The notes below the pieces were generated by a model that was not told the DNA's origin, did no database searches, and saw nothing but the letters and a program-made list of their open reading frames with translations. Shown here piece after piece: positions 38,894 to 57,747 of a DNA stretch of 64,000 nt. The stretch covers positions 96,001-160,000 of the forward strand of contig CAVRGP010000013.1 in assembly GCA_963720755.1 (NCBI GenBank), read 5' to 3'. The DNA is from an uncultured Chloroflexia bacterium. Lineage in GTDB: Bacteria; Chloroflexota; Limnocylindria; Limnocylindrales; CSP1-4. Both the position numbers and the translations under genes were made by a program. Position 1 is the first letter of the stretch; the number at the start of each line of letters is the position of its first letter.

Positions 38894-38911
38894 TACCTGA
38901 AGAGGTGCACC

Positions 38912-42115: not shown

Positions 42116-42168
42116 GTCCCAAGGAACAGTCCCCACCCCACTGTTAGGGGCGAAGTGAGGGGTGTCGG

Positions 42169-42651
42169 ATGTTCACGCGCGAGATGCTCGATTCTGCACT
42201 TGCCTCTGGGTGGTTCGGTGCCGGACTCCCCGGACCCGCTCGCGACCGCCTGGCCGAGTTGGCGCACCTGGGGTCGTACCCGACGGGCGAGGTCGTCATC
42301 CACGAGGGCCAACCCGTCGACTCGTTCGGCGTGGTCGTCGAGGGGCGCCTGGCGGTCCGGCTCAACGTTCCCGGCCGGAGCACCGTCACTGCCCTGACCA
42401 TCGAACCCGGCGACATCGTCGGTTGGTCAGCCCTGGTCCCGCCGCATCGGGCCACCTCCACGGTCGTCGCCCTGGAACCGACTACCGTCGTGGCCTTCGA
42501 CGGGTCATCGTTGCGTTCGGAGCTGGACGCCGATCCCGCCCTCGCCGCCGCGGTGACGTGGCGTGTGCTCGATGCCGTCGCCCGGCGCCTGGAGGCGACC
42601 AGGACGCAGTTGCTGGACCTCTTCGCCCGAGTGGAACACGAGCCGTGGTGA
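42169..42651 (+). CDS. Stand-alone cyclic-nucleotide-binding domain protein
   Basis: GEVVIHEG, VVEGRLAV, PGDIVGWSAL; no HTH. Confidence 0.85.
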   Translation: MFTREMLDSALASGWFGAGLPGPARDRLAELAHLGSYPTGEVVIHEGQPVDSFGVVVEGRLAVRLNVPGRSTVTALTIEPGDIVGWSALVPPHRATSTVVALEPTTVVAFDGSSLRSELDADPALAAAVTWRVLDAVARRLEATRTQLLDLFARVEHEPW

Positions 42652-44696
42652 CGACCGACCCGATCGCCGGCCACGATATCGCGCGCTGGTTGCCCACCGA
42701 CCAATTCGGCCGCCTGCTCGACGCGCTCCGGGCCGATGGCCGGACCGTGATCGGACCGACGGTCCGCGATGGGGTGATCGCCCTCGACGAGATCGTCCAC
42801 GCCGCCGATCTGCCGACCGGGCGCGGCGCGGAGACCGGTCCCGGCCGGTATCGGATGACCACCCGGGCGGACGAGCGCCGGTTCGACCACGCCGTCGGCC
42901 CGATGTCGCCGAAGCGCTGGATCTTCCCGCCCCGCGCACCGATCCGTCTCGGCCGGAAGACGCCCGCCGGGGTCCGGTTCAGCGGGATCGAACCCCAGCC
43001 CGCCCCCCTTGCGTTCGTCGGGGTGCGCGCCTGCGAGCTGGCCGCGATCGGGATCCAGGATCACGTCTTCCTGGATGGCCAGGCCATCGACGCCGACTAT
43101 CGGGCGCGTCGATCGGCGGCGTTCATCGTCGCGGTCGAGTGTGCCACCCCCACGGCGACCTGCTTCTGCACCTCGATGGGGACGGGTCCAGAGGTGACCG
43201 ATGGCTATGACGTCGCGCTGACCGAGCTCGACGGCGGGTTCGTCGTCCGGATCGGGTCGCCCGCCGGCCGGACGCTCGTCGAGGCACTCGATCTTGCTCC
43301 GGCCGATCGCTCCGCGACAGAGGCCGCCGAGGCAGCCGTCGCCGGTGCGCGACGGGCGATGGGCACACCGATGGACATGACCAACGTCCACGAGCGGCTG
43401 CAGGCCGCGCCCGAGCACCCCGGCTGGGCGGCCGTCGCCGAGCGCTGCCTGTCATGCACGAACTGCACCCTCGTCTGCCCGACCTGCTTCTGCACCAGCG
43501 TGGTCGAGAAGTCCGACCTCGACGGAACGACGTCGACCGGTGAGCGGACCTGGGACTCCTGCTTCAACGAGGGCTTCGCCAAGGTCGCCGGTGGCTCGTT
43601 CCGCCCGAATACCAAGGATCGCTACCGCCAATGGCTCACCCACAAGTTCTCGACCTGGTGGGACCAGTTCGGGTCGACCGGGTGCGTCGGCTGCGGCCGC
43701 TGCATCGCGTGGTGTCCGGTCGGGATCGATGTGCGGGAGGAGCTGAGCGTGATCGCCGGGGTCGGGCCGGTCCCGATGCCGCAGCTTGGGGTCGATGCAG
43801 GCATGACCGGGACCATCGCGATCGAGCCGCCCGTCGTTCCGTCCCCTCCGGCTGCCATCGTCCCCCGGATGTCGCGGACCCCGGCGCCCGCGGGGTTCGT
43901 CACGGTCCATGTCGAAGGGTCGACCCGCGAGACGACCGATACGGTGACCCTCCATCTGCGCACGACGGATCGGCGCCTGCTCGCCGGCAAACCGGGTCAG
44001 TTCGTCATGGCCACCCTGCCGGCATTCTCGGCCGCACCGATCTCCGTGTCCCGGTTCCGGCGCGACGGCCTGGACCTCACGATCCGGGCGGCCGGACCCG
44101 CCACCCGCGCCCTGACCGAACTGGAACGGGGAGCGACGCTGGGGTTGCGTGGGCCGCTCGGACGCGGCTGGCCGGTCGAACGGATCTCGGGACGCGACAT
44201 CGTCATCGTCGCGGGCGGGATCGGCCTGGCGCCGCTGCGGCCATTGATCGACGCCTGCCTCGCGAACCGCGAGTCGCTCGGCTGGGTGCGGCTCTACCTC
44301 GGGACGCGAACGCCGGCCGACCGGCTGTACGTGGACGAGGTCGACCGCATCGCGACCGGGACCGACATCGACTTCAGGGAGACGGTCGATCGGGCCGGGC
44401 CGGACTGGCTCGGGCGGGTCGGGATCGTGACCCAGCTGTTCGATCGGGCGACATGGGACGGGAGCAACGCCCTCGCCTTCATCTGCGGCCCGGAACGGAT
44501 GATGCAGGCCACGGCCGATGCCCTGTTCGACCACGGCCTGACCCCGGACCGAACGTGGGTCACGCTCGAACGGAACATGAGTTGCGGCGTCGGACTGTGC
44601 GGGCATTGCCAGCTCGGCCGGTCGTTCGTGTGCGAGGACGGCCCCGTCTTCGACCTGGCCGAGCTCGGATCTGCCTTCTCCACCGAGGGTCTGTGA
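42648..44696 (+). CDS. Fused sulfhydrogenase beta (4Fe-4S) and gamma (FAD/NAD(P), 2Fe-2S) subunits
   Basis: GVRACEL, CFCTSMG, CLSCTNCTLVCPTCFC, CVGCGRCIAWCP then PGQF, GPLGRG, AGGIGLAP, CGPERM, CGVGLCGHC in one ORF. Confidence 0.88.
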   Translation: MTTDPIAGHDIARWLPTDQFGRLLDALRADGRTVIGPTVRDGVIALDEIVHAADLPTGRGAETGPGRYRMTTRADERRFDHAVGPMSPKRWIFPPRAPIRLGRKTPAGVRFSGIEPQPAPLAFVGVRACELAAIGIQDHVFLDGQAIDADYRARRSAAFIVAVECATPTATCFCTSMGTGPEVTDGYDVALTELDGGFVVRIGSPAGRTLVEALDLAPADRSATEAAEAAVAGARRAMGTPMDMTNVHERLQAAPEHPGWAAVAERCLSCTNCTLVCPTCFCTSVVEKSDLDGTTSTGERTWDSCFNEGFAKVAGGSFRPNTKDRYRQWLTHKFSTWWDQFGSTGCVGCGRCIAWCPVGIDVREELSVIAGVGPVPMPQLGVDAGMTGTIAIEPPVVPSPPAAIVPRMSRTPAPAGFVTVHVEGSTRETTDTVTLHLRTTDRRLLAGKPGQFVMATLPAFSAAPISVSRFRRDGLDLTIRAAGPATRALTELERGATLGLRGPLGRGWPVERISGRDIVIVAGGIGLAPLRPLIDACLANRESLGWVRLYLGTRTPADRLYVDEVDRIATGTDIDFRETVDRAGPDWLGRVGIVTQLFDRATWDGSNALAFICGPERMMQATADALFDHGLTPDRTWVTLERNMSCGVGLCGHCQLGRSFVCEDGPVFDLAELGSAFSTEGL

Positions 44697-45550
44697 TGCC
44701 GTCCGCCACTCGTCGCTCCGCTCCACACCGGCCGCGTGTCGGCGTCGTCAAGTTCGCTTCGTGCGACGGGTGTCAGCTGACCCTGCTCGATCTCGAAGAC
44801 GAGCTGCTGCTCATCGCCGAACGGTTCGATATCGTCGAGTTCCCGGAGGCGACCTCGCGGCGGTCTGCCGGTCCGTTCGACGTCCTCCTCGTCGAGGGTT
44901 CCATCAGCAGCGAGGAGCAACTCGAGGAATTGCTCCGGCTCCGCCGCGAGACGACGACCCTCGTGACCATCGGCGCCTGTGCGACCGCTGGCGGGATCCA
45001 GGCGATCCGCAACTGGTCGGAGCATGGGCCATGGGCCGCTGCGGTCTACCCGCGACCCGAACTCGTGCCATCGCTCGCGACCGCAACGCCCGTCGCCGAT
45101 CATGTCGTGGTCGACGCTGAGCTGCGTGGCTGCCCGATCGATCCGGGCCAGCTCCTGGAACTGTTGACGGCTCTCGTGGTCGGCCGCCGGCCACAACTGC
45201 CGGACGAATCGGTCTGTGCGGAGTGCAAGCGGCGGGGCGCGACGTGTGTCGTCGTCGCCGACGGCGTCGCCTGTCTCGGCCCGGTGACGCGAACGGGTTG
45301 TGGCGCCCTGTGCCCCACCTTCGGGCGCGGCTGCTACGGCTGCTTCGGGCCACGCGGAAACGCCAACGTCACGAGCCTGGTCGCCAACGCCGCCGGGTTC
45401 GATGAGTCGACGGCGAGCGCGAAGTTCGCCGGTTTCACGGCCTGGGCGGAACCATTCCGCTCGGTCATCGACCGCCACGGCGGCCCACCCGGCGCGACCC
45501 CGGCCGCCCCGCCCGACCCGGCCAAGCCGACCGGAGGAGATATCCGATGA
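44696..45550 (+). CDS. Group 3b [NiFe] hydrogenase small (delta) subunit
   Basis: FASCDGCQ, EGS, GACA, GCP, CAEC, CLGPVT..GCGALCP...CYGCFG. Confidence 0.92.
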   Translation: MPSATRRSAPHRPRVGVVKFASCDGCQLTLLDLEDELLLIAERFDIVEFPEATSRRSAGPFDVLLVEGSISSEEQLEELLRLRRETTTLVTIGACATAGGIQAIRNWSEHGPWAAAVYPRPELVPSLATATPVADHVVVDAELRGCPIDPGQLLELLTALVVGRRPQLPDESVCAECKRRGATCVVVADGVACLGPVTRTGCGALCPTFGRGCYGCFGPRGNANVTSLVANAAGFDESTASAKFAGFTAWAEPFRSVIDRHGGPPGATPAAPPDPAKPTGGDIR

Positions 45551-46869
45551 CCGAGACCACGACCCGCCGACGCAGCCGGACCCAGCGTTTCGAGGTGGAG
45601 GGTCTGACCCGGGTCGAAGGCGAGGGATCGCTGAGCCTTGTCGTCCGCGACGGCGACGTCATCGAAGCGCGGCTGGGGATCTTCGAGGCGCCTCGCTACT
45701 TCGAACGTCTGGTCCGCGGCCGGACCCCCGACGAAGTGCTCGACATCGTCGCTCGGATCTGTGGCATCTGCCCAGTGGCCTACCAGATGAGTGCGGTCCA
45801 TGCCTTCGAGGACGCCGCCGGGATCGCCATCGATCCAGCGGTCCGGGCGCTCCGCCGCCTGCTCTATTGCGGCGAGTGGATCGAGAGTCATGCCCTCCAC
45901 GTGTATTTCCTCCACGCCCCGGATTTCATGGGCTACGCCAGCGCGATCGAACTGGCCCGCGACCACCGGGTCCTGGTGGAGCGAGCGCTGGCGCTCAAGA
46001 AGGCCGGGAACCACCTCGTCGCCCTCGTCGGAGGTCGGCCGATCCACCCAGTGAGCGTCCGGGTCGGCGGTTTCTACCACGTGCCGACCAGGTCCGCCTT
46101 GACCGCGCTCCGTCCGGAATTGACGGCTGCGCTCGATATCGCCCTGGAGACGGTTGCGGTGGTCACGACGCTGACGCCACCCGAGTTCGTTCGGGATCCG
46201 CGTCTCGTGTCGCTCCGTCATCCGACCGATTACCCGATGAACGAGGGCCGGATCGTGTCCACGGATGGCCTCGACATCGCGCCGACCGACTGGGAGACCG
46301 CCTTCGAGGAGGACCAGGTCGGCTGGTCGAACGCGCTCCAGGCCCGGACCCACGCCGGTGAGGTGTACCTCCTGGGCCCGTCGGCCCGGATCACCCTGGC
46401 CGCCGACCGTCTCCATCCACTGGCGGCCGAGGCCCTTGCCCATTCCGGTCTCGCCGAAGAGATCCGGCGAAACCCGTTCCGAAGCATCGTCGCGCGGGCG
46501 ATCGAGCTCGTTCACGCGACGGCCGAAGCGCTCGACCTGATCGCCGACTACCGCCCGCCGGAGCGGCCGGCCGCTCCGTGGACCCCGGGGCCAGGTGTCG
46601 CGGCATGGGCGACCGAAGCGCCGCGCGGGCTCCTGTTCCATCGCTACGAACTCGACGAGCAGGGACGGGTGGCCACCGCCAGGATCGTCCCCCCGACGAG
46701 CCAGAACCAGGCCGCCATCGAGGCGGACCTGACCGACTTCGCACCGTCCGTCCTGGATCTGCCGCATGACCAGGCGATCCATCGCTTCGAGCAGCTCATC
46801 CGCAGCTACGACCCGTGCATCTCGTGCGCGACGCACTTCCTCGATCTGCGCGTGGACCGACAGACGTGA
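45547..46869 (+). CDS. Group 3b [NiFe] hydrogenase large (alpha) subunit
   Basis: RVEGEG, L1 RICGICPVAY, EAPRG, PPTSQN, L2 DPCISCATH plus short cleavable tail. Confidence 0.95.
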   Translation: MTETTTRRRSRTQRFEVEGLTRVEGEGSLSLVVRDGDVIEARLGIFEAPRYFERLVRGRTPDEVLDIVARICGICPVAYQMSAVHAFEDAAGIAIDPAVRALRRLLYCGEWIESHALHVYFLHAPDFMGYASAIELARDHRVLVERALALKKAGNHLVALVGGRPIHPVSVRVGGFYHVPTRSALTALRPELTAALDIALETVAVVTTLTPPEFVRDPRLVSLRHPTDYPMNEGRIVSTDGLDIAPTDWETAFEEDQVGWSNALQARTHAGEVYLLGPSARITLAADRLHPLAAEALAHSGLAEEIRRNPFRSIVARAIELVHATAEALDLIADYRPPERPAAPWTPGPGVAAWATEAPRGLLFHRYELDEQGRVATARIVPPTSQNQAAIEADLTDFAPSVLDLPHDQAIHRFEQLIRSYDPCISCATHFLDLRVDRQT

Positions 46870-49484: not shown

Positions 49485-49930
49485 CTACCACTTCCCGGGC
49501 GACGACCGTCGCCGACGTCATGATCCTGGACCTCGTGGTCGTTCGAGCCAATGCCCCGCTCGACCAGGCCGCAGAAATGATGGACCGCCACCGTATCAGC
49601 GGCCTGCCGGTCGTCGATTCGGCCGGGGCGCTCGTTGGCGTCCTCAGCCAGGCGGACCTCGTCCGGGCGCGCTCGACCGAGTACCTGTGGGCCAACTGGC
49701 CGGGCCTGGCGGTCCGCCACCTGATGACGACGCCGCCGATCACCGTCCGGCGATCCACCCCGCTGTCCGTGGCCGCCGCTCGCATGGAACGTCATCACAT
49801 CCATCGGCTCGTCGTGGTCGCGGACGACGACGAGACGCTCCCGATCGGGATCCTGTCGACCACCGACCTTGTCCACGATATGGCCAAGGTCGCACGCGAT
49901 GCGCGGCACGGAGGGCCCGATGCCCGATAG
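49481..49930 (+). CDS. CBS-pair domain protein
   Basis: VADVM, ISGLPVVD..LVGVLS..DL, IHRLVVV..GILSTTDL. Confidence 0.9.
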   Translation: MTTTSRATTVADVMILDLVVVRANAPLDQAAEMMDRHRISGLPVVDSAGALVGVLSQADLVRARSTEYLWANWPGLAVRHLMTTPPITVRRSTPLSVAAARMERHHIHRLVVVADDDETLPIGILSTTDLVHDMAKVARDARHGGPDAR

Positions 49931-51590: not shown

Positions 51591-51594
51591 CGCC

Positions 51595-51828
51595 GTGTGC
51601 CTCGGATTCCCGGGTCTCGTCGTTGCGATCGATCCGACTGGCGCGACGATCGAGACGGATGGCCGGCGGCGTCGCGCGAACACGCTCCTGGCACCCGATC
51701 TGCGGGTGGGCGAATGGGTCTTCGTATCCGCCGGCACCGTCATCGAGCGCCTGCCGCCCGATGAGGCGGCCTTCATCCACGACGAATTGGAAGCGGCCCG
51801 TCGATCCGGGCCGGGAGGAACAACGTGA
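51595..51828 (+). CDS. hypC: HypC/HybG hydrogenase chaperone
   Basis: MCLGFPG N-terminus, VGEWVFVSAG. Confidence 0.85.
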   Translation: MCLGFPGLVVAIDPTGATIETDGRRRRANTLLAPDLRVGEWVFVSAGTVIERLPPDEAAFIHDELEAARRSGPGGTT

Positions 51829-52778
51829 CTGACGAACTCGCGGCCAAACCTGGCCGACCGCGCATCCCGATGACCGCCCGTTGGGGTGTCGCCCTGGCCG
51901 TCGTCGTGGCGTTCATCAGCGGCGTGTCGGTGTTCCTGAATGGGTACGCGGTGAAGCAGCTCCCCGATGCCGCGGTCTACACGACGCTCAAGAACGGGTT
52001 TGCCGCGCTCATCCTGCTGGGTGTCGCCGCGTCCGTGGTCCGGATGTCCGAGGTGCGCGCGCTCGATCGACGCGCCTGGACGGGCCTGACCGTCATCGGC
52101 GTCATCGGCGGGAGTGTCCCGTTCCTCCTGTTCTTCAGCGGGCTGGCCCTCGCCAGCGCCCCGTCGGCGGCATTCATCCACAAGACGCTGTTCCTGTGGG
52201 TCGTCATGCTCGCCGTGCCGTTCCTCGGCGAGCGGCTCGGCTGGTTCCCGATCGCGGCCCTCGGCGTGCTTCTGGTCGGCCAGGCCCTGGCGACTCCGCC
52301 GACGGGCATGGTCTGGGGCACGGGTGAGACGTTGATCCTCGCCGCCACCCTGCTGTGGGCGGTGGAAGTCATCCTCGCCCGCCGGCTGCTCCTCCGCGAT
52401 GTGCCCTCGCCGGTCATGGGCGCGGCTCGGCTCGGGATCGGGTTCGTCGTCCTCGTCGGCTATCTCGCCGTGACCGGTCGTCTCACCGTCGTCGCTGGAC
52501 TGACCGCCACACAGTGGGCCTGGGCCATCGGTACCGGCGTCATGCTCGCCGCCTATGTCGGCACGTGGCTGGCTGCCCTCCGACGAGTCGAGGCATCCGT
52601 GGTCGCGAGCATCCTCGTCCTGGGGGCGCCGATCACGGCCGTCCTCCAGGGTGTCGTGAACGGTGTGCTGCCGGCGCCGCCCGTGCTTGTCGGACAGCTC
52701 GCCATCGCCATGGCGGTGGGTGTCATCGCGATCGTGTCCTTCCGGCCCGCCAGGCGGGAACGGGTCGTCGCCGGATGA
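51825..52778 (+). CDS. EamA/DMT family transporter
   Basis: About 10 TM, LFFSGL, FIHKT, PFLGER. Confidence 0.85.
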   Translation: MTDELAAKPGRPRIPMTARWGVALAVVVAFISGVSVFLNGYAVKQLPDAAVYTTLKNGFAALILLGVAASVVRMSEVRALDRRAWTGLTVIGVIGGSVPFLLFFSGLALASAPSAAFIHKTLFLWVVMLAVPFLGERLGWFPIAALGVLLVGQALATPPTGMVWGTGETLILAATLLWAVEVILARRLLLRDVPSPVMGAARLGIGFVVLVGYLAVTGRLTVVAGLTATQWAWAIGTGVMLAAYVGTWLAALRRVEASVVASILVLGAPITAVLQGVVNGVLPAPPVLVGQLAIAMAVGVIAIVSFRPARRERVVAG

Positions 52779-53530
52779 CCCTCACGGTCGGGCCCGTCCC
52801 CGGCCCGGTCCGCTTCGCCCGGTATGCGTACGGACCGAACCGGTTGGGCTACTGCGGTCCCGATGCCGCCGGTGAATTGCTCGGGGAGGCTGCCGAAGGC
52901 GGCGATCTCCGGCGCATCCGCGACCTGGCCAGGGGGTTCGAAGGCGCCTACCCGTACCTCGAGCTGATCGCCCGGTCCAATGGCATCCCGGACCCGCTCG
53001 ATGGCCGGGTGGTGGAGGCCTACTGGCTGGGAAATGACCTGCTTCGGGCGGTCCCAACGGCAGCGTTCGGCCGGTCGGTCGAGGAACGCTTCCGGCCGCG
53101 CGCCCGAAGCACGGCCTGGCGGTGGCTCGCGACCAAGGCACCGGAGGGCGCCCATCCGGTCCATGCGTTCCACGTCCTCGACGTCTTCCCGGTCGTCGGC
53201 TTCCTTCGGGGGGAGGTCACGGGCGACGCCCTCCGGACCATCGATTCCTGCCGGATCCGATGGGGGACCGTCCGCGATCGTCTCGGCCCGAACCTCATCG
53301 TCGACGCCGTCCCGCTCGAGTGGTCGGCCGGCAAGCTGCGGCTCGGTCAACCGCGGCCCGAAACGATCCGCGGCTGGGACGACGGACTCGGCTTCGTCGC
53401 CGACATCGAGCCGGGCGACGTCGTCGCGATCCATTGGGACTGGGCGTGCGAGCGACTCGACGAGCGCCAGTCGGCAGCGCTCCGGGAATGGACGGCGCGA
53501 GAGCTCGTCGTCGCCAACCGGACGATCTAG
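52775..53530 (+). CDS. DUF6390-like hydrogenase-associated protein
   Basis: FARYAYGPNRLGYCGP, VVEAYWLGN, HAFHV, CRIRWG, HypC-like tail PGDVVAIHWDWAC. Confidence 0.75.
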   Translation: MTLTVGPVPGPVRFARYAYGPNRLGYCGPDAAGELLGEAAEGGDLRRIRDLARGFEGAYPYLELIARSNGIPDPLDGRVVEAYWLGNDLLRAVPTAAFGRSVEERFRPRARSTAWRWLATKAPEGAHPVHAFHVLDVFPVVGFLRGEVTGDALRTIDSCRIRWGTVRDRLGPNLIVDAVPLEWSAGKLRLGQPRPETIRGWDDGLGFVADIEPGDVVAIHWDWACERLDERQSAALREWTARELVVANRTI

Positions 53531-54261
53531 GACGCGAGACCGGTCCCTGCGGAACCGGCGGCCCGGCCCACCCCGGCGGCCGCCAGGAGCTGGACGCCCT
53601 GCTCCCAGGTATCCCGACGCTCGGCCATCAATCGCTCCTGCTCGCCACGCAACAGGGTCCACAGCGCTGGATGTTCCCCCCGCAAAGCCGTGGACGCACG
53701 GAACCGACCCATCGCGTCGGCGATGAAGGCGGCGTAGCGGGCGACCGGTTCGGCCGAGGCGAACCGTGCCTCGAAGCCCGCGACGTAGTCCACGGCGATC
53801 ATCAACCGCCCGAAGAAGGCGGCCAGGTCGAGTGCCGCCTCGTCCCAACCTTGTGAGTGGCCGCCGCGTCGGAGGATCGGCGCCGGCGAGACGAGGATGA
53901 CCACGGTCAGGTCGTCGAACCGGGTCACGGTCAAATGGCCACCGAAAGTCACGTACTCATTGGCGACCCCCAGACGATCGACGATGACGACGGTGCCCCA
54001 GGAATAGGTCGTGTCGAGGGGCCGGGTCTGCCGGGTGATCTCGAGGCGGGCGCCGTGCGACCCGCTGCTCACCCAGACGTAGGCGGATTCCGGGTCGAAA
54101 TGCCGAAGGGTCGGGGCGTCGCGGAGACCGATGAGCAGGTACGCGTCACCGTGGCCGTCGGGCAGATCGGCGTGGGCGACGAACCCCCAGTCCGCGAGAC
54201 GACTGGCGGCGACCGCTGGATCGATCGGATCGTGGAGCGTCGGCGCCTTGCTCGCCGCCAT
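53527..54261 (-). CDS. Hypothetical protein
   Basis: About 244 aa, coding-like bias, TGATG coupling to hemerythrin-like gene. Confidence 0.7.
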   Translation of the reverse strand: MAASKAPTLHDPIDPAVAASRLADWGFVAHADLPDGHGDAYLLIGLRDAPTLRHFDPESAYVWVSSGSHGARLEITRQTRPLDTTYSWGTVVIVDRLGVANEYVTFGGHLTVTRFDDLTVVILVSPAPILRRGGHSQGWDEAALDLAAFFGRLMIAVDYVAGFEARFASAEPVARYAAFIADAMGRFRASTALRGEHPALWTLLRGEQERLMAERRDTWEQGVQLLAAAGVGRAAGSAGTGLAS

Positions 54262-54722
54262 CAATGGTCTGCGGCCGTCCCGTCGAGCAAAGGCATGAGC
54301 AGTCGCTCCTCCCGCTCGAGATGGGCGGCGATGACCGCCCGGGTCGCGCTGAGGTGGGCGATGACCTCGACGTTCGTCCGTGGCGTCACGTGCCCGAGCC
54401 AGCGGACCGAATCGGCCTCCAGGGCCGCGATGAGCGCGTCGATCTGGCGATGCTCACAGCGGCTCGACCTCGTTGCCCAGGTCGTCCCGGCCAGTTCGTC
54501 CAGTTGGGGGTACAGCCAGGTGTCCTCCCAGGCCATGTGGGGCCTGAGTTCTCGCTGGAGCCAGCCGAGGGCGGTGTGCAGCCGATGCCACAGCTGATCC
54601 GAGGTCAGGTCGGGCGATTGCTCGATGGTCTCGGCGATATGGGCCAGCCCGAGTGACAGATCGTGATGTTCCAGCGCCGCGAACCGTGCCTCACCGTCTG
54701 CGGCGGCGGTTTGAGCGGTCAT
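54261..54722 (-). CDS. Hemerythrin/HHE-like domain protein
   Basis: EHHDL, HMAWED..LYP, EHRQI, HLEREE..LMP; GGAG SD. Confidence 0.8.
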   Translation of the reverse strand: MTAQTAAADGEARFAALEHHDLSLGLAHIAETIEQSPDLTSDQLWHRLHTALGWLQRELRPHMAWEDTWLYPQLDELAGTTWATRSSRCEHRQIDALIAALEADSVRWLGHVTPRTNVEVIAHLSATRAVIAAHLEREERLLMPLLDGTAADH

Positions 54723-54830
54723 GTCTCCACCTCGATCCCAGTAGGCCGAGCCGCTCGGGGTCGACCACGCCGGCCGCCCGAGTCCCGCTCGCGTATCGCC
54801 AGCATCGGCCGTGCCGGCCACCGGCGAACA

Positions 54831-54924
54831 GGGCCATTCGTCCGCTAGGACGGTGTCGCGCGGCCCCTCGACGATCGGGCGCGACCCGATCGTCGGGTCC
54901 CGACGGCCGCGGGCCCAACGGACC
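54831..54924. promoter_or_regulatory. Divergent promoter with DosR-like boxes and an 11-bp inverted repeat
   Basis: GGGCCATTCGTCCG, GGTCCCGACGGCCG, GGGCCCAACGGACC; CGACGATCGGG-N5-CCCGATCGTCG (54869-54895). Confidence 0.5.
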
Positions 54925-54999
54925 CCGCCGCCGTGACCTGCGGCACTGATGGCGGTGCGGCCCGCCCGTCGATGCTTCAGTCACGCACGAGGTGTACCG

Positions 55000-55413
55000 A
55001 TGGACGAATCCATGAACCTGGTCCTGTTCTCCGGGACCGACGACAAGCTGCAGGCGGCCGCGGTCCTGACGGCGGGCGCTGCGGCGCTCGGCAAGCCGGT
55101 CCACGTCTTCCTCCAGTACTGGGCGCTCGACGCGTTCCGGGCTGACCGGATCGCCGGCGACCACGGGCTTGCGCCGGAGGCCGGAGAAGCCGGTCGTGCC
55201 GCCGTCGACGCACTGGCGCGGGCCGGACAGGCCAGCTGGGCCGACACGTTCCGCCAGGCCAAGGACCTCGGCGGCGTCGACATCCAGGCCTGCTCGCTGT
55301 CCATGGACCTGCTCGAACTCGAACCCACCGATCTCGACCCCCTGGTCGACGGTGTGGAAGGCGTGACCGCCTTCTACCTCGAGGCGGGCGAGGGCCAGGT
55401 CGTCTTCATCTGA
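55000..55413 (+). CDS. DsrE/DsrF/DrsH-like sulfur transferase
   Basis: LVLFSGTDDKL, IQACSLSMD. Confidence 0.82.
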   Translation: MDESMNLVLFSGTDDKLQAAAVLTAGAAALGKPVHVFLQYWALDAFRADRIAGDHGLAPEAGEAGRAAVDALARAGQASWADTFRQAKDLGGVDIQACSLSMDLLELEPTDLDPLVDGVEGVTAFYLEAGEGQVVFI

Positions 55414-55460
55414 TCCACCCACGCCAACCGCCACTGAACCGATAACGGAAGGAGTCTTCG

Positions 55461-55697
55461 ATGCCGACCATGGAGATCAGCCAGACCGTCGACGCACGCG
55501 GGCTGTCGTGCCCGATGCCGATCGTCAAGACGGCGCAGGCCGTGAAGCCACTGCCGTCCGGCGCTCTCGTCGAGCTGCTGGCCACGGATGCCGGATCGGT
55601 CAAGGACGTCGCGGCCTGGTGCCGCTCGACCGAGAACACGATCGTCGAGCAGACGAGCGACGGCGGCGTCTTCCGCTTCGTCATCCGCCGGAAGTGA
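55461..55697 (+). CDS. tusA: TusA/SirA family sulfur carrier
   Basis: VDARGLSCPMP, ATDAGSVKD. Confidence 0.9.
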   Translation: MPTMEISQTVDARGLSCPMPIVKTAQAVKPLPSGALVELLATDAGSVKDVAAWCRSTENTIVEQTSDGGVFRFVIRRK

Positions 55698-55704
55698 GGC
55701 CGTC

Positions 55705-56298
55705 ATGACCACCGAGACCCTCGCACCATTCGATCCCCTCGCCGACGCCATCGCCGCCGCCGACGGCCAGCCCGAACTCGACGGCCAGCCGGATCCGCTT
55801 CCCGCGATGGACGGTGAGGTCAAGACCCGCGACCTGCTGATCATCGATTACAGCGGCGACCTCGAGAAGGTCTGGGCCACGATGATCCTCGCCTCGACGA
55901 GCGCCGCGATGGGCGTCAAGACCCGCGTCTTCGTGACGTTCTGGGGCCTCCAGGTGTTCGTCAAGGACTCCAGGCGGATCACCGGCGAGAACTGGATGCA
56001 GCGGATGATGTCCGCGATGCAACGACCCGGGATCAGCCATCGGAAGCTCTCGAAGATGAACTTCTTCGGGATGGGTCCCTGGATGATGGGCCGCCTGGCC
56101 AAGCAGTACGGCGTCGCCAGCCCGAAGGAGCTGCTCGAGGCCGCTCAGGCGATGGGCGTCGAGTTCATCCCGTGCCAGATGACCATGGACATGTTCGGCC
56201 TCAAGCCGGAGGACATGATCGAGGGCATGGCTGAGCCGGCTGGTGCCGCGACCGTCATCGGCCTGATGACCGAGAACTCCACCCCGCTGTTCATCTAG
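55705..56298 (+). CDS. DsrE2-like sulfur transferase
   Basis: SGDLEK, FVTFWGL, LSKMNFFGMG, PCQMTMD. Confidence 0.88.
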   Translation: MTTETLAPFDPLADAIAAADGQPELDGQPDPLPAMDGEVKTRDLLIIDYSGDLEKVWATMILASTSAAMGVKTRVFVTFWGLQVFVKDSRRITGENWMQRMMSAMQRPGISHRKLSKMNFFGMGPWMMGRLAKQYGVASPKELLEAAQAMGVEFIPCQMTMDMFGLKPEDMIEGMAEPAGAATVIGLMTENSTPLFI

Positions 56299-56336
56299 AC
56301 ACGACACGACACGACCGAAGGAAGGGAACGACCGCT

Positions 56337-56582
56337 ATGACCGACACGGCTGTCACCATCACGCGGGTCGTCGACGCACGCGGGAGCTATTGCCCCGGGC
56401 CGTTGATGGAACTCATCCGCACCATCCGCGAGGCGCAGGTCGGCGACGTGATCGCCGTCTACTCGTCGGACAAGGGATCCAAGACGGACATCCCGAAGTG
56501 GGTCGAGAAAGCCGGACACCGGCTCGTCTCACTCGAAGCCCGAGATGGCTACGACGAGATCGTGGTCGAGAAGCTCCGGTAG
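56337..56582 (+). CDS. Second TusA family sulfur carrier
   Basis: VDARGSYCPGP, SSDKGSKTDIPKW. Confidence 0.88.
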   Translation: MTDTAVTITRVVDARGSYCPGPLMELIRTIREAQVGDVIAVYSSDKGSKTDIPKWVEKAGHRLVSLEARDGYDEIVVEKLR

Positions 56583-56589
56583 GGCGCCG

Positions 56590-57747
56590 ATGCGACGGAT
56601 CCTCATCCTGGGTGGGGGTGTGGGGGGCACCCTCACCGCCAATCTGCTGATCAAGAAGCTCCGAGCTCAGGTCGACCGCGGCGATGTCGAGATCATGGTC
56701 GTCGACGCGACCGGACAGCATGTCTACCAGCCCGGCTTCATGTACATCGCGATGGGCGGCGAGCAGGCGAAGAACCTCAAACGTCCGGAGCGATCCCTGC
56801 TCGACAAGCGTGTGCGGCTCGTCGTGGGCCAGGTGGCCAACGTCGATGAGGCCCGCCAGGTCGTGGCGTTGACCGATGGCCTGGAACTCGGCTATGACCA
56901 GCTCGTCCTGGCAACCGGCTCGCGCATCGTGCCTGAGGCGATCGAACATTTCGATACCGAGGCCCACCACTTCTACACGGCCGAGGCCGCGGCGAAGCTG
57001 CGGACGGCCCTCGACACGTTCGATGGCGGCCGGATCGTCGTCGGCATCGCCGGGATGCCGTACAAGTGCCCACCGGCGCCGCTCGAAGTCTCCTTCCTGA
57101 TCGAAGCGGAGCTTCGGGGCCGCGGCTTGCGTGAGCGGACCACGATGGACTACTGCTCGCCGATCGGTCGCGCGTTCACGATCGAATCCGTGTCCGAGAT
57201 GGCGACCCCGATCCTGGAGCAGAAGGGGATCGAGCTCCACACATTCTTCAACGTCGAGGCCATCGACCCCGAACGGAAGGTCGTCATGAGCCTCGAGGGC
57301 GAGGAGCTGCCGTATGACCTCCTGATCCTCGTGCCGCCGCACAAAGGCCAGCAGTTCCTCATGGACTCGGGGATGGCCCCGGCTCCCGGCGGCTGGCTCC
57401 CGACCGACCGCCACACCCTGCTCGTCGGCGATCGAAAGAACGTCTACGCCCTCGGTGATGCGACCGACCTGCCGCTGTCGAAGGCGGGGTCCACGGCGCA
57501 TTTCGAAGCGCCGGTGGTCGCCGAGCGCGTCTCGGCCGCCATCCTGGGCCAGGCACCCGAAGGGAAGCACGCCGACTACCAGGGCAAGGTGATGTGCTTC
57601 TTCGAGATCGGGGACGGGAAAGGGACTCTGCTCCAGTTCGACTACGACCACCCGCCCAAGCCGCCGAAGCCGAACCAACTCTGGCACCTCGGGAAGATCG
57701 TCTTCAACAAGACGTACTGGCACACGGTGCCGAAGGGTCGGGTCTGA
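56590..57747 (+). CDS. Sulfide:quinone oxidoreductase-like flavoprotein
   Basis: ILGGGVGG, HVYQPG, YKCPPAPLE, YALGDAT...KAG, VMCFFE (two redox Cys). Confidence 0.85.
   Translation: MRRILILGGGVGGTLTANLLIKKLRAQVDRGDVEIMVVDATGQHVYQPGFMYIAMGGEQAKNLKRPERSLLDKRVRLVVGQVANVDEARQVVALTDGLELGYDQLVLATGSRIVPEAIEHFDTEAHHFYTAEAAAKLRTALDTFDGGRIVVGIAGMPYKCPPAPLEVSFLIEAELRGRGLRERTTMDYCSPIGRAFTIESVSEMATPILEQKGIELHTFFNVEAIDPERKVVMSLEGEELPYDLLILVPPHKGQQFLMDSGMAPAPGGWLPTDRHTLLVGDRKNVYALGDATDLPLSKAGSTAHFEAPVVAERVSAAILGQAPEGKHADYQGKVMCFFEIGDGKGTLLQFDYDHPPKPPKPNQLWHLGKIVFNKTYWHTVPKGRV

What the first reader, a model, noticed from the sequence alone, without database searches (positions are those of the whole stretch)
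42169..57747. Candidate hypoxia-induced 2-oxoacid/H2/sulfane-sulfur redox locus
Seen: one tightly packed run (most junctions overlap by 1-11 bp) of cNMP protein, sulfhydrogenase BG-D-A, protease/PFOR, CBS, PFOR, hypC, EamA and DUF6390-like genes. A hemerythrin pair and a DsrE-TusA-DsrE-TusA-SQR-like operon follow, with a shared palindrome type at the promoters. Known: group 3b hydrogenases couple NAD(P)H to H2 and can reduce polysulfide in vitro (Pyrococcus SHI); PFOR yields low-potential electrons; DsrE/TusA carry persulfides. Inference: a co-regulated module that routes 2-oxoacid electrons to protons or sulfane sulfur under O2 limitation, with three stand-alone sensor domains (cNMP, CBS, hemerythrin). 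I do not know of this combined architecture being characterised, but cannot confirm novelty.
Basis: partly seen in the sequence, partly recalled or inferred. Interest (0 to 1): 0.78.

Follow-up and report, generated by a model that had tools for sequence, protein, structure and literature searches.

The report
Low-oxygen hydrogenase and pyruvate oxidoreductase island
A soil Chloroflexota genome carries a tightly packed hydrogen-enzyme operon with a pyruvate-oxidising enzyme built into it, apparently switched on by a low-oxygen regulator like the one mycobacteria use for dormancy, while the neighbouring sulfur-carrier genes look like a separate, only loosely attached unit.

Summary
The gene content is real and lies at the stated coordinates. 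The window comes from a Limnocylindria-type Chloroflexota genome.

**Core.** The core is a group 3b [NiFe]-hydrogenase with a fused beta-gamma subunit, a small subunit and a large subunit. A small cNMP-fold protein precedes it. A complex model docks that protein on the NAD(P)-binding domain (score 0.71, best control 0.01), so it looks like a HoxI-type subunit, not a free sensor.

**Conserved accessory genes.** The protease, hypC, EamA and DUF6390 follow in most relatives (EamA and DUF6390 in 33 of 43 loci with full flanks). DUF6390 has a HypC-like C-terminal domain.

**Variable parts.** The split PFOR with a CBS gene between its halves is an insertion, present in 9 of 43. The DsrE-TusA-DsrE-TusA-SQR operon is adjacent in only 7 of 43, has its own ArsR-type regulator in three relatives, and always accompanies PFOR-bearing or recently PFOR-bearing loci.

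**Regulation.** A conserved palindrome (GGGCCGAACGGCCC type) sits upstream of the hydrogenase operon, the PFOR and the hemerythrin gene. Relatives encode DevS/DevR-like sensor pairs and universal stress proteins beside the locus.

**Reading.** This is a DosR-like, low-oxygen fermentative H2 module, as known for Mycobacterium smegmatis Hyd3. It differs in its accessory genes and its built-in PFOR. Routing of electrons to sulfane sulfur is not supported.

The parts
42079..42115 (+). Two palindromic operator-like sites: GGACCGAATGGTCC (42079-42092) and GGCCGAACGGCC inside AGGCCGAACGGCCG (42102-42115). They lie upstream of a -10-like CACTGT (42139-42144). The centre of site 2 is about -42 from the inferred start.
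   Evidence: Conserved in 19 of 19 aligned upstream regions, while the flanking intergenic DNA is not (alignment A2). The promoter geometry is inference.
42169..42651 (+). cNMP-fold protein of 160 aa with no DNA-binding domain. Proposed HoxI-like subunit of the hydrogenase.
   Evidence: PF00027, 64 bits. Present upstream of the hydrogenase in 63 of 64 loci with enough upstream flank. Lies between hydB and hydG in L041, L042 and L048. Complex model: score 0.71, best control 0.01.
42645..44696 (+). Fused HyhB (AsrA-like Fe-S) and HyhG (FAD/NAD(P), 2Fe-2S) diaphorase subunit, 683 aa.
   Evidence: Fer4_22, NAD_binding_1 and DHODB_Fe-S_bind. Sulfhydrogenase HydB, HydG, ShyB and ShyC models match below their cut-offs. 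Two CxxCxxCxxxC motifs.
44693..45550 (+). Hydrogenase small subunit (delta, HyhS).
   Evidence: PF01058. ShyD 153 bits and HydD 137 bits.
45547..46869 (+). [NiFe] large subunit (alpha, HyhL), group 3b type.
   Evidence: Motifs RICGIC (residue 70) and DPCISC (residue 422) plus a 10-residue C-terminal tail. Best solved relatives are the T. kodakarensis cytosolic hydrogenase (5yxy) and P. furiosus sulfhydrogenase I (9nez), matched over the full length.
46866..47352 (+). Hydrogenase maturation endopeptidase. In this window it runs in frame into the PFOR gene with no stop codon.
   Evidence: TIGR00072, 50.2 bits against a cut-off of 47.45. No stop before 49484. Separate gene in 17 of 17 relatives.
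47398..47411 (+). Palindrome ATGCCGAACGGCCC, 64.5 nt upstream of the probable PFOR start ATG 47469. Proposed internal promoter/operator.
   Evidence: Best matrix hit in the whole window, 14.5 bits, and not in the training set. Conserved in the 4 aligned sequences (the window and 3 relatives; alignment A1). The same motif lies before PorAG in 12 of 22 PorAG family members.
47469..49484 (+). PFOR first half (domains I, II, III; alpha plus gamma).
   Evidence: POR_N, PFOR_II and POR. Best solved matches are the single-chain PFORs 1b0p, 7plm and 6cin; residues 19-628 align to 7-608.
49481..49930 (+). Stand-alone CBS-pair protein between the PFOR halves.
   Evidence: PF00571, two repeats, 105 bits. 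Lies between PorAG and PorDB in 13 of 13 loci with both halves. Retained in L003, which has lost the PFOR, and placed upstream of cNMP in L014-L020, L026 and L035.
49899..51590 (+). PFOR second half (ferredoxin domain plus TPP-binding beta domain). The start is 49899 or 49920.
   Evidence: TPP_enzyme_C and Fer4 families. TIGR02176 matches in two stretches, the best at profile positions 954-1107; also PorB and PorD models.
51595..51828 (+). HypC chaperone.
   Evidence: PF01455, 61 bits. TIGR00074, 50 bits against a cut-off of 48.
51825..52778 (+). EamA/DMT-family membrane transporter of unknown substrate.
   Evidence: PF00892, two repeats. Follows the hydrogenase in 33 of 43 loci with full flanks, including an archaeal locus, L048.
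52775..53530 (+). DUF6390 protein: helical N-terminal domain plus HypC-like C-terminal domain. Proposed extra maturation chaperone.
   Evidence: PF19927, E 8.6e-81. Model pLDDT 86.5. The six best PDB fold matches are HypC. Profile comparison with HypC: probability 92.5%, E 5e-7, with invariant Cys159 aligned to HypC Cys2.
53527..54264 (-). Conserved protein of unknown family (about 244 aa), the partner gene of the hemerythrin.
   Evidence: No Pfam or NCBIfam hit. Model pLDDT 86.3: beta-sandwich plus helices, with only weak matches to the ATP-synthase epsilon subunit. At least 1865 homologues; every source-given name among the 120 listed is 'hypothetical protein'.
54261..54722 (-). Hemerythrin-domain protein, 153 aa.
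   Evidence: PF01814, 51.5 bits. Start set by comparison with relatives.
54831..54844 (.). Palindrome GGGCCATTCGTCCG, 115 nt upstream of the hemerythrin start, in the divergent intergenic region.
   Evidence: 13.1 bits, fourth best hit in the window and not in the training set. GGGCCAnnnGTC is conserved in L001-L004 and L007. The motif lies upstream of hemerythrin genes in 6 of 19 family members.
54933..54946 (+). Box GTGACCTGCGGCAC, 60.5 nt upstream of the DsrE start. In relatives it is followed by an ATGCGCA-type repeat and an ArsR-family gene that this window lacks.
   Evidence: GKGACC-N3-GGCAC is conserved in the window, L001, L003, L004, L007, L012 and L068. It scores only 2.9 bits on the hydrogenase-site matrix; the outer half-sites alone score 9.4.
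55000..55413 (+). DsrE-like protein, 137 aa.
   Evidence: PF13686, 53.8 bits. Length set by comparison with relatives.
55461..55697 (+). TusA sulfur carrier.
   Evidence: PF01206, 82.7 bits. The Cys-Pro motif is present.
55705..56298 (+). DsrE2-like protein.
   Evidence: PF13686, 140 bits. NF047629, 78 bits against a cut-off of 210.
56337..56582 (+). Second TusA.
   Evidence: PF01206, 75.3 bits.
56590..57747 (+). Sulfide:quinone-reductase-like flavoprotein.
   Evidence: Type III SQR model, 340 bits against a cut-off of 525. Best solved match is human SQOR, with both Cys residues aligned.

Best explanation
The locus is a low-oxygen/redox regulon island of a Limnocylindria-type Chloroflexota bacterium. 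It is built around a cytosolic group 3b [NiFe]-hydrogenase.

**Shown by sequence.**
- One translationally coupled operon encodes a cNMP-fold protein, a fused HyhB-HyhG diaphorase, and the small and large subunits.
- It also encodes its own maturation set: endopeptidase, HypC, an EamA transporter and DUF6390, which carries a HypC-like domain.
- In one sub-lineage a PFOR has been inserted between the protease and hypC. It is split in two, with a CBS-pair gene between the halves, and has its own copy of the operon's promoter palindrome.
- The same palindrome type precedes the hemerythrin gene. In relatives it also precedes universal stress protein and CBS genes.

**Inferred.**
- The palindrome is the site of a DevR/DosR-like response regulator paired with a DevS-like heme kinase. 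Relatives encode both beside the locus.
- The genes would therefore be switched on when oxygen runs low.
- PFOR then oxidises pyruvate or another 2-oxoacid to acyl-CoA, and the reductant is released as H2 by the hydrogenase. The route would be via ferredoxin and NAD(P)H, or directly through the Fe-S domain of HyhB.
- This would keep the redox balance of a resting aerobe, as described for Mycobacterium smegmatis Hyd3.
- The cNMP-fold protein is a HoxI-like fifth subunit sitting on the NAD(P)-binding domain.
- The DsrE-TusA-DsrE-TusA-SQR operon is a separate unit for handling sulfide and sulfane sulfur. It has its own regulation and lies next door in this sub-lineage only.
For: **Identity of the hydrogenase.** Domains and subunits are. 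The best solved relatives are 3b enzymes.

**Synteny in 80 related loci.**
- cNMP in 63 of 64 loci with enough upstream flank.
- Protease in 41 of 43 loci with full flanks.
- EamA and DUF6390 in 33 of 43.
- hypC in 29 of 43.
- PFOR in 9 of 43.
- Dsr block in 7 of 43 (each Dsr gene on its own is counted in 6 of 43).
- CBS between the PFOR halves in 13 of 13.

**Regulatory motif.**
- The footprint is conserved in 19 of 19 aligned upstream regions.
- The best hits outside the training set fall before the PFOR and the hemerythrin.
- The window has 4 hits of 13 bits or more against 1.24 expected.
- In the loci there are 106 intergenic against 26 genic hits, a 15-fold difference in density.
- The motif lies upstream of cNMP (27 of 56), USP (13 of 34), PorAG (12 of 22), CBS (10 of 34) and hemerythrin (6 of 19).

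**Regulator.**
- A GAF-HisKA_3 kinase lies near the hydrogenase in 7 loci. A NarL-type regulator is called beside it in 6 of them (none was called in L067).
- The regulator of L068 best matches M. tuberculosis DevR (3c3w, 198 bits), with the stretch KTVKNYVS (the recognition helix, as recalled) identical.
- Its kinase best matches the DevS/DosT heme GAF domain (137 bits).

**Fermentation genes near the locus in relatives.** Acetate kinase, phosphoketolase, acetyl-CoA hydrolase/transferase and a zinc alcohol dehydrogenase.

**cNMP protein as a subunit.** The complex model scores 0.71 against a best control of 0.01. That mark was reached by 116 of 157 solved complexes and 2 of 215 mismatched pairs. 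The three runs share at least 68% of contacts and the partner's pLDDT is at least 85. Contacts fall in the NAD_binding_1 domain and on the protein's invariant residues.

**Literature (passages read).**
- Hyd3 is upregulated at low oxygen (PMC2799521).
- Hyd3 belongs to the DosR regulon together with USPs (PMC5430705).
- A cNMP-domain gene lies inside 3b clusters (PMC11879354; PMC13332983).
- That gene is called HoxI in a 3b cluster (PMC12319191).
Against: - No DevS/DevR-like pair and no USP gene lie in this 64-kb window (tblastn). The regulator is inferred from relatives.
- The palindrome differs from the mycobacterial DosR box as I recall it, and no binding was tested.
- Group 3b enzymes use NAD(P)H, whereas PFOR reduces ferredoxin. 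No ferredoxin or ferredoxin:NAD(P) reductase gene lies in the locus, so the electron path is a gap.
- The direction of the hydrogenase (H2 production or uptake) cannot be read from sequence.
- PFOR is absent from 34 of 43 related loci, so it is not needed for the hydrogenase's basic role.
- The Dsr block occurs only beside PFOR-bearing or recently PFOR-bearing loci (6 of 9 against 1 of 34; Fisher p 9e-5, not corrected for relatedness). This happens in three hydrogenase clades (quick tree). Its promoter box sits at the same distance from the start codon as the hydrogenase site. Calling the Dsr block fully separate may therefore be too strong.
- The complex model is a prediction, made with my own alignments.
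Confidence: 0.6

Rival explanations
1. The hydrogenase, the PFOR and the DsrE/TusA/SQR proteins form one co-regulated module. It passes 2-oxoacid electrons either to protons or to sulfane sulfur carried on TusA/DsrE.
For: - The Dsr block lies beside the locus in the window and in L001, L003, L004, L007, L012, L057 and L068, in three gene orders.
- It occurs only beside PFOR-bearing or recently PFOR-bearing loci (6 of 9 against 1 of 34).
- In L057 the Dsr/SQR genes lie directly upstream of the PFOR on the same strand.
- A GKGMC-N4-GKCMC-type box sits 60.5 nt before DsrE, the same geometry as at the hydrogenase promoter.
- L068 has a 13.8-bit hydrogenase-type site ahead of its ArsR-Dsr operon.
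Against: - The block is absent from 36 of 43 related loci with full flanks.
- L009 has the hydrogenase and the PFOR but no Dsr block.
- An ArsR-family gene heads the Dsr operon in L001, L003 and L068, which points to separate control.
- No hydrogenase-type site of 13 bits or more lies upstream of DsrE_a in any of 6 family members.
- The Dsr box scores 2.9 bits on the matrix.
- The SQR-like protein keeps the cysteines of a sulfide-oxidising enzyme. That is the opposite direction to sulfur reduction.
- Sulfur reduction by 3b enzymes is an in vitro side activity (my own knowledge, not checked here).
Confidence: 0.12
2. The module runs in the uptake/assimilatory direction. The hydrogenase oxidises H2 to make NAD(P)H, and the PFOR works as a pyruvate synthase, fixing CO2 onto acetyl-CoA in microoxic soil.
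For: - 3b enzymes are bidirectional. PMC11879354 and PMC12319191 describe them as reversible (passages read).
- PFOR is reversible in principle (my own knowledge).
- CoA-transferase genes lie directly upstream.
Against: - Pyruvate synthesis needs low-potential ferredoxin, which NAD(P)H cannot supply without an extra enzyme. None is encoded here.
- The neighbours in relatives are fermentation-type genes: acetate kinase, phosphoketolase and alcohol dehydrogenase.
- The closest studied case, M. smegmatis Hyd3, is described as H2-producing (PMC5430705).
Confidence: 0.15
3. The sub-blocks are neighbours by chance or by recent rearrangement and are not co-regulated. The palindromes are unrelated GC-rich repeats.
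For: - The strict pattern GKGMCNNNNGKCMC is not enriched in the window: 3 matches against 4.4 expected.
- GGACCNNNNGGTCC with one mismatch is only mildly enriched: 16 against 9.6 expected, with 1 of 100 shuffles reaching 16.
- The PFOR and Dsr blocks come and go among relatives.
Against: - The site is conserved in 19 of 19 relatives amid unconserved DNA.
- The two best hits outside the training set fall in the locus's own promoters.
- The motif is 15 times denser in intergenic than in genic DNA and recurs before the same gene families in many loci.
- The operon junctions overlap.
Confidence: 0.08

Closest known systems
Mycobacterium smegmatis Hyd3 (Hyh, MSMEG_3931-3927), a DosR-regulated group 3b [NiFe]-hydrogenase
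   Same: It has the same four functional subunits plus a maturation protease. It is induced at low oxygen and belongs to a DosR regulon together with universal stress proteins (PMC2799521; PMC5430705). Relatives of this window have DevS/DevR-like genes and USP genes beside the hydrogenase.
   Different: Here beta and gamma are fused. A cNMP-fold gene heads the operon, and hypC-EamA-DUF6390 follow. A split PFOR with a CBS gene is built into the operon. The operator sequence differs (GGGCC-GAAC-GGCCC type). The phylum is Chloroflexota, not Actinomycetota. I did not examine whether M. smegmatis has DUF6390 or EamA next to Hyd3.
HoxI subunit of the soluble NAD-reducing hydrogenase of Cupriavidus necator (group 3d)
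   Same: It is a small protein with a cyclic-nucleotide-binding fold, encoded with the hydrogenase. It is said to provide NADPH binding on the diaphorase side (PMC12319191 citing Burgdorf 2005, passage read). Here the protein is predicted to dock on the NAD(P)-binding domain.
   Different: The hydrogenase group differs (3b, not 3d), and so does the docking partner (an FNR-like HyhG domain, not HoxFU). Sequence relatedness to HoxI itself was not tested. As I recall the motif, the residues that usually hold the cyclic nucleotide are changed: an invariant Trp replaces the Glu, and the Arg is variable (alignment A7).
Pyrococcus furiosus sulfhydrogenase I / Thermococcus kodakarensis cytosolic hydrogenase
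   Same: These are the best solved relatives of the large subunit, at 214-218 bits over the full length. The subunit families are the same.
   Different: All NCBIfam sulfhydrogenase models match far below their cut-offs, for example HydA 223 bits against 880. No cNMP, EamA, DUF6390 or PFOR genes are known to me in those operons (recalled, not checked).
Single-chain pyruvate:ferredoxin oxidoreductase (Desulfocurvibacter africanus 1b0p, Moorella 6cin)
   Same: The domain order I-II-III then ferredoxin then TPP domain is the same. The first half scores 292 bits.
   Different: It is split into two genes after domain III, with a CBS-pair gene between them in 13 of 13 loci. It scores below the TIGR02176 cut-off, 373 bits against 911. 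The substrate is unknown.
HypC/HupF chaperones
   Same: The C-terminal domain of DUF6390 has the same fold and profile similarity. A conserved Cys aligns with the essential Cys2.
   Different: The Cys is internal (residue 159), behind a helical domain of about 155 residues. A canonical HypC is encoded as well.
Sulfide-detoxification operons with SQR, TusA/DsrE-type carriers and ArsR-type sulfane-sulfur repressors (SqrR, BigR, sHdrR/SoxR)
   Same: SQR-like, TusA and DsrE genes lie in one operon. An ArsR-family gene heads it in L001, L003 and L068. That gene matches BigR at 52 bits and SqrR at 38 bits among other ArsR proteins. ArsR-type sulfane-sulfur repressors are described in PMC10451225 and PMC12423496 (search listing and start of abstract only).
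   Different: No persulfide dioxygenase or rhodanese lies in the operon. The ArsR gene is missing in this window. The best ArsR matches are the metal sensor CmtR and Rv0081, so a sulfur-sensing role is not established.

Membership tests
Group 3b [NiFe]-hydrogenase | Large subunit with the N-terminal RxCGxC and C-terminal DPCxxC nickel-iron ligand motifs and a cleavable C-terminal tail. | tested here: met
   RICGIC at residue 70, DPCISC at residue 422 and a 10-residue tail.
Group 3b [NiFe]-hydrogenase | Closest to characterised 3b enzymes, not to groups 1, 2, 3a, 3c or 3d. | tested here: met
   The best NCBIfam models are ShyA (254 bits) and HydA (223), ahead of FrhA (136) and VhuA (133). The best PDB chains are 3b enzymes at 212-218 bits, against MvhA at 154 and the NAD-reducing hydrogenase at 145. 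All matches are below the equivalog cut-offs.
Group 3b [NiFe]-hydrogenase | Partner subunits: small subunit, AsrA-like Fe-S beta subunit and FAD/NAD(P) gamma subunit. | tested here: met
   All are present, with beta and gamma fused.
Group 3b [NiFe]-hydrogenase | HydDB classifier assignment, and NAD(P)H-linked H2 activity. | not testable with these tools
   No HydDB tool and no assay are available here.
DosR/DevR regulon | A DevR-type regulator and a DevS/DosT-type heme-GAF kinase in the genome. | tested here: inconclusive
   The kinase is found next to the hydrogenase in 7 relatives, with the regulator beside it in 6 of them. Neither is within this 64-kb window. The rest of the genome was not available.
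DosR/DevR regulon | A palindromic box at about -42 of the regulated promoters. | tested here: inconclusive
   A conserved 5-4-5 palindrome lies at an inferred -42. Its sequence differs from the mycobacterial consensus as recalled, and the transcription start is inferred.
DosR/DevR regulon | Induction by hypoxia, NO or CO. | not testable with these tools
   No expression data are available.
HoxI-type hydrogenase subunit | A small cNMP-fold protein encoded within the hydrogenase structural genes. | tested here: met
   The same is reported for other 3b clusters.
HoxI-type hydrogenase subunit | Physical association with the diaphorase part. | tested here: inconclusive
   Predicted only: score 0.71, best control 0.01.
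HoxI-type hydrogenase subunit | Sequence homology to HoxI of C. necator, and NADPH binding. | not tested
   No HoxI sequence was at hand.
Pyruvate:ferredoxin oxidoreductase | Domains I, II, III, the ferredoxin domain and the TPP-binding domain. | tested here: met
   The enzyme is split over two genes.
Pyruvate:ferredoxin oxidoreductase | Pyruvate as the substrate. | not testable with these tools
   All equivalog models match below their cut-offs.
HypC/HupF (for DUF6390) | OB-fold barrel with a C-terminal helix. | tested here: met
   The six best PDB fold matches are HypC, with target-normalised TM-scores of 0.61-0.83 and E-values of 4e-3 to 4e-2. hhalign probability is 92.5%.
HypC/HupF (for DUF6390) | The essential Cys as residue 2 at the free N-terminus. 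| tested here: not met
   The aligned Cys is residue 159, behind another domain. DUF6390 is HypC-like, not a HypC.
Sulfide:quinone oxidoreductase | An FAD-binding fold and two redox cysteines. | tested here: met
   GGGVGG is present near the N-terminus. The Cys in PYKCPPAP and VMCFFE align with the Cys of human SQOR. That those are the catalytic pair is recalled.
Sulfide:quinone oxidoreductase | Type III family model above its cut-off. | tested here: not met
   NF049943 scores 340 bits against a cut-off of 525. That model is for the selenoprotein subtype.
Hemerythrin (for the second gene of the 'pair') | A four-helix bundle with HHE iron ligands. | tested here: not met
   The protein at 53527-54264 has no Pfam hit. 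Its model is a beta-sandwich plus helices.

The most novel reading that the evidence does not exclude
The locus encodes a self-contained pyruvate-to-H2 fermentation machine of an otherwise aerobic soil lineage.

- The PFOR hands electrons directly to the AsrA-like Fe-S domain of the fused HyhBG subunit.
- The HoxI-like protein caps or gates the NAD(P) site.
- The CBS protein tunes PFOR to the adenylate state.
- EamA plus the HypC-like DUF6390 are so far unrecognised maturation factors specific to 3b hydrogenases in bacteria and archaea.
- In PFOR-bearing genomes the TusA/DsrE/SQR set is recruited as a linked sulfur-handling arm.
Probability: 0.12. Interest if true: 0.8.

Novelty: new variant of a known kind. 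Interest (0 to 1): 0.5.

Why it matters
Limnocylindria (Ellin6529) are abundant in soils and have no cultured representative at hand. How such aerobes survive oxygen-poor spells is an open question.

This locus suggests they use the same strategy as mycobacteria: a DosR-type switch that turns on a 3b hydrogenase. Here the electron-producing PFOR is wired into the same operon.

The analysis gives three testable leads of wider use:
- **DUF6390.** At least 3563 homologues and no paper found in the library searched. It is a HypC-like protein that travels with 3b hydrogenases, also in one archaeal (Thermoplasmata) locus.
- **The cNMP-fold gene.** This gene, common in 3b clusters, is predicted to be a subunit that sits on the NAD(P)-binding domain.
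- **The operator motif.** A defined motif is now available for finding the rest of the regulon in these genomes.

Tried and rejected
**DosR box from memory.** A mycobacterial DosR-box pattern (GGGACTNNNGTCCC, up to 2 mismatches) was not enriched: 25 matches against 43.7 expected. I dropped it and derived the motif from relatives instead.

**Simple IUPAC palindromes.** These showed little or no enrichment in the window. Only the matrix and the cross-species footprint were informative.

**Actinobacterial origin.** My first guess, based on high GC and the parallel with M. smegmatis, was wrong. The relatives are Chloroflexota of the Limnocylindria type.

**Protease-PFOR fusion as a conserved feature.** Rejected. 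The two genes are separate in 17 of 17 relatives.

**The unknown 245-aa protein.**
- No Pfam or NCBIfam hit.
- No usable hit in the protein atlas.
- Only weak matches to the ATP-synthase epsilon subunit (E about 1e-3, query-normalised TM about 0.26).
- No informative names among at least 1865 homologues.
- Function left open.

**The ArsR-family regulator of relatives.** It could not be assigned to the persulfide-sensing subgroup. Its best matches are CmtR and Rv0081.

**Rfam.** A scan of the window at gathering thresholds found only one tRNA.

**tblastn into the window.** DevR-like, DevS-like, USP and ArsR genes gave no hit.

**HydA tree.** The careful tree did not finish in the time allowed, so only the quick tree was used.

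**Not checked.**
- The supplements of the bioRxiv preprint 10.1101/2021.08.23.457424 were closed. Its hydrogenase tables (Table S3, Text S4) may list 3b contexts in this lineage.

Full report
**What is there**

The window is about 69% G+C, so I picked genes by third-position G+C and confirmed them with Pfam and NCBIfam. From 42169 to 53530 eleven genes run on the plus strand (ten open frames in this window, because two are fused here):

| Gene | Coordinates |
|---|---|
| cNMP-domain protein | 42169-42651 |
| Fused HydB/HydG-type subunit | 42645-44696 |
| Hydrogenase small subunit | 44693-45550 |
| [NiFe] large subunit | 45547-46869 |
| Maturation endopeptidase | from 46866 |
| PFOR half with domains I-III | to 49484 |
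| CBS-pair protein | 49481-49930 |
| PFOR half with ferredoxin and TPP domains | to 51590 |
| hypC | 51595-51828 |
| EamA transporter | 51825-52778 |
| DUF6390 | 52775-53530 |

The junctions are -7, -4 (eight times), +4 and -32, or -11 with the alternative start.

Two minus-strand genes converge on this operon. One is a protein of no known family (53527-54264). The other is a hemerythrin, whose real start is 54722 by comparison with relatives.

Diverging from these are DsrE-like (55000-55413), TusA, DsrE2-like, TusA and an SQR-like flavoprotein (56590-57747).

- Only one of the 'pair' is a hemerythrin.
- DUF6390 is a full member of PF19927.
- In this window the protease and the first PFOR half share one open frame. 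In 17 of 17 relatives with both genes they are separate.

**Whose genome, and what is conserved**

The large subunit's closest named relatives come from Chloroflexota MAGs labelled Limnocylindria, Limnocylindrales or Thermomicrobiales. A scan of one genome per GTDB species gave 80 loci, nearly all from that lineage. I mapped the window's proteins onto them by tblastn.

Among the 43 loci with at least 9 kb on both sides:

| Gene | Loci |
|---|---|
| cNMP | 42 |
| Protease | 41 |
| EamA | 33 |
| DUF6390 | 33 |
| hypC (a short gene, probably undercounted) | 29 |
| CBS | 16 |
| The unknown protein | 17 |
| Hemerythrin | 16 |
| PFOR first half | 9 |
| Each Dsr/TusA/SQR gene | 6 |

Among the 64 loci with enough upstream flank, cNMP is present in 63.

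The conserved unit is therefore cNMP, hydrogenase, protease, hypC, EamA and DUF6390, often with a CBS gene and the hemerythrin/unknown pair.

The PFOR is an insertion between the protease and hypC. It is present in 17 of all 80 loci. CBS lies between its halves in 13 of the 13 loci that have both halves.

Close relatives show the PFOR decaying. L001 keeps part of the first half, and L003 has none, yet both keep the CBS gene.

**The hydrogenase**

The large subunit has the RICGIC and DPCISC motifs and a C-terminal tail for the protease. Its best solved relatives are the Thermococcus cytosolic hydrogenase and Pyrococcus sulfhydrogenase I. Its best family models are the sulfhydrogenase alpha subunits, though far below the equivalog cut-offs. 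With the small subunit and the AsrA-like and FAD/NAD(P) parts, this is a group 3b enzyme. HydDB itself could not be run.

**The cNMP protein is probably a subunit**

Four observations point this way:
- It has 160 residues and no DNA-binding domain.
- It overlaps the next gene by 7 bases.
- In three distant loci (Eiseniibacteriota, Brocadiaceae, Thermoplasmata) its gene lies between hydB and hydG.
- Papers describe the same thing in Frankia (PMC11879354) and Rhodococcus equi (PMC13332983). A methanotroph paper calls the gene HoxI, after the NADPH-binding subunit of the Cupriavidus soluble hydrogenase (PMC12319191). I read passages only.

I folded the protein with the fused HydBG, each as an alignment of relatives (A6, A7). 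The result:
- The median score was 0.71 and the best control 0.01.
- That mark was reached by 116 of 157 solved complexes and 2 of 215 mismatched pairs.
- The three runs share at least 68% of contacts, and the partner's pLDDT is at least 85.
- The contacts on HydBG (residues 524-525, 554-559, 582-601, 616-622) lie in the NAD_binding_1 domain.
- The contacts on the partner include its invariant residues.

This supports binding but does not show it. I know of no solved complex of this kind, so a pass from memory seems unlikely. The alignments were my own.

In the alignment, the positions that I recall as holding the cyclic nucleotide are an invariant Trp and a variable Arg. A cyclic nucleotide may therefore not be the ligand.

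**DUF6390 and the unknown protein**

DUF6390 modelled well (pLDDT 86.5). Its six best PDB fold matches are HypC structures, with modest E-values of 4e-3 to 4e-2. A profile comparison with the HypC proteins of these loci gave 92.5% probability (E 5e-7). It aligned the invariant Cys159 with the essential Cys2 of HypC.

The protein atlas adds a weak lead: archaeal clusters in which 24-50% of members carry the HypC family (scores 0.79-0.85). No paper in the library names DUF6390, and the few source-given names among the 120 listed of at least 3563 homologues are 'hypothetical protein' or 'DUF6390'.

I read DUF6390 as a HypC-like maturation factor. It is not a HypC, because the Cys is internal.

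The 245-residue protein next to the hemerythrin stays unexplained.

**Regulation**

Upstream of cNMP, 19 of 19 aligned relatives keep three elements while the rest of the intergenic DNA varies:
- GGCCGAACGGC.
- A second palindrome 23 bases further up.
- A -10-like TAnnnT.

The first site is centred near -42 of the inferred start, which is the layout of an activator site. This is inference.

A palindromic matrix built only from these sites gives four hits of 13 bits or more in the window, against 1.24 expected:
- The two training sites.
- 47398, which is 64.5 bases before the PFOR start.
- 54831, which is 115 bases before the hemerythrin start.

Across the 1.36 Mb of related loci, hits are 15 times denser in intergenic than in genic DNA. 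They recur before these gene families:

| Family | Members with the motif upstream |
|---|---|
| cNMP | 27 of 56 |
| Universal stress protein | 13 of 34 |
| PFOR first half | 12 of 22 |
| CBS | 10 of 34 |
| Hemerythrin | 6 of 19 |

Seven relatives carry a GAF-HisKA_3 kinase close to the hydrogenase, and six of them have a NarL-type regulator called beside it:
- The regulator of L068 matches M. tuberculosis DevR best (198 bits), with the stretch KTVKNYVS identical; that this stretch is the recognition helix is recalled.
- Its kinase matches the DevS/DosT heme GAF domain best (137 bits).

In M. smegmatis the 3b hydrogenase Hyd3 rises at low oxygen (PMC2799521). It is listed in the DosR regulon with universal stress proteins (PMC5430705).

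The simplest reading is a DosR-like regulon. The weak points are that this window itself holds no such regulator and that no binding or expression data exist.

**The sulfur operon**

Both TusA proteins keep the Cys-Pro motif. The SQR-like protein keeps two Cys aligned with those of human SQOR.

Evidence that the operon is separate:
- It is adjacent in 7 of 43 full loci.
- L009 has the hydrogenase and the PFOR without it.
- In L001, L003 and L068 an ArsR-family gene heads it. That gene has been lost in this window, leaving the promoter region.
- None of 6 family members has a hydrogenase-type site of 13 bits or more upstream of DsrE_a.

Evidence that it may be linked:
- It occurs only next to PFOR-bearing or recently PFOR-bearing loci: 6 of 9 against 1 of 34 (Fisher p 9e-5, not corrected for relatedness).
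- It does so in three hydrogenase clades and three gene orders (quick tree).
- Its conserved box GTGACC-N3-GGCAC sits 60.5 bases before the start, the same distance as at the hydrogenase promoter. The box scores only 2.9 bits on the matrix.

I therefore treat it as a separate sulfide/sulfane-sulfur unit. A tie to PFOR is possible but unexplained.

**Mechanism and verdict**

Most likely (about 0.6), this is a low-oxygen fermentative module. PFOR oxidises a 2-oxoacid and the hydrogenase vents the reductant as H2. The enzyme has its own maturation helpers and a HoxI-like subunit.

Fermentation genes near the locus in relatives fit this: acetate kinase, phosphoketolase, acetyl-CoA hydrolase/transferase and an alcohol dehydrogenase. 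So do the CoA-transferase genes just upstream in the window.

The electron path from ferredoxin to an NAD(P)-type hydrogenase is the main gap.

The core idea is already known from mycobacteria. What is new:
- The lineage.
- The operator.
- The fused subunit.
- The built-in split PFOR with a CBS gene.
- The HypC-like DUF6390.
- The predicted docking of the cNMP-fold protein.

I rate it a new variant of a known kind, with interest 0.5.

Noticed in passing
window 46866-49484: The hydrogenase maturation protease and the first PFOR half form a single open frame in this window, because no stop codon falls in a variable spacer that carries a 38-base insertion relative to L007. In 17 of 17 relatives they are separate genes. 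This could be a real fusion, read-through of an intergenic operator region, or an assembly indel.
   Followed up: partly
window 54723-54999, compared with L001:17070-17638, L003:15728-16108 and L068:20702-21076: Relatives have an ArsR-family regulator gene directly before DsrE. The window, L004 and L007 lack it but keep the upstream box and promoter-like sequence, as if the regulator gene had been deleted (L012 still holds ArsR-like coding sequence there, which my gene caller missed).
   Followed up: partly
window 54869-54895: A perfect 11-base inverted repeat (CGACGATCGGG, 5-base spacer, CCCGATCGTCG) lies in the divergent region between the hemerythrin and DsrE. It is not conserved in L007.
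   Followed up: no
L001:12062-13920 and L003:11311-12428: Close relatives are losing the PFOR. L001 keeps only part of the first half and L003 has none, yet both keep the CBS gene and the motif in front of it. CBS therefore seems tied to the hydrogenase operon as much as to the PFOR.
   Followed up: partly
L048:12191-14194 (Thermoplasmata MAG): An archaeal 3b hydrogenase locus also has hypC, EamA and DUF6390 downstream (38-40% identity). The trio therefore travels with 3b hydrogenases across domains.
   Followed up: partly
L068:2774-4653, L071:1705-3875, also L033, L044, L060, L067, L080: A DevS-like GAF kinase lies between a universal stress protein gene and the hydrogenase operon, with a DevR-like regulator beside it except in L067. 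In the window and L007 this block is missing, and the CoA-transferase genes abut the cNMP gene.
   Followed up: yes
window 36816-42034: Upstream block of aldehyde dehydrogenase, class-III aminotransferase and two CoA-transferase subunits. It is syntenic with the hydrogenase in L001, L007, L009, L010 and L012. A second class-III aminotransferase follows the SQR gene (57824-59215). This may be a GABA-shunt or acyl-CoA handling set. A GCCGAACGGT-like half motif lies before the aminotransferase (38828-38837).
   Followed up: no
window 3353-9316: Glycogen/alpha-glucan gene group: GH57 amylase/glucanotransferase, a phosphorylase with DUF3417, and a starch-synthase-type glycosyltransferase.
   Followed up: no
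window 14262-19657: SulP-family permease, P-type cation ATPase and polyphosphate kinase 2 lie together on the minus strand. No hydrogenase-type motif was found there at 12 bits or more.
   Followed up: no
window 25614-25686: A single tRNA gene, the only Rfam match in the window at gathering thresholds.
   Followed up: no
alignment A7 (cNMP proteins of the window and 35 loci): At the positions that usually bind the cyclic nucleotide phosphate and ribose (as I recall the motif), these proteins have an invariant Trp and a poorly conserved Arg. The ligand may not be cAMP or cGMP.
   Followed up: no
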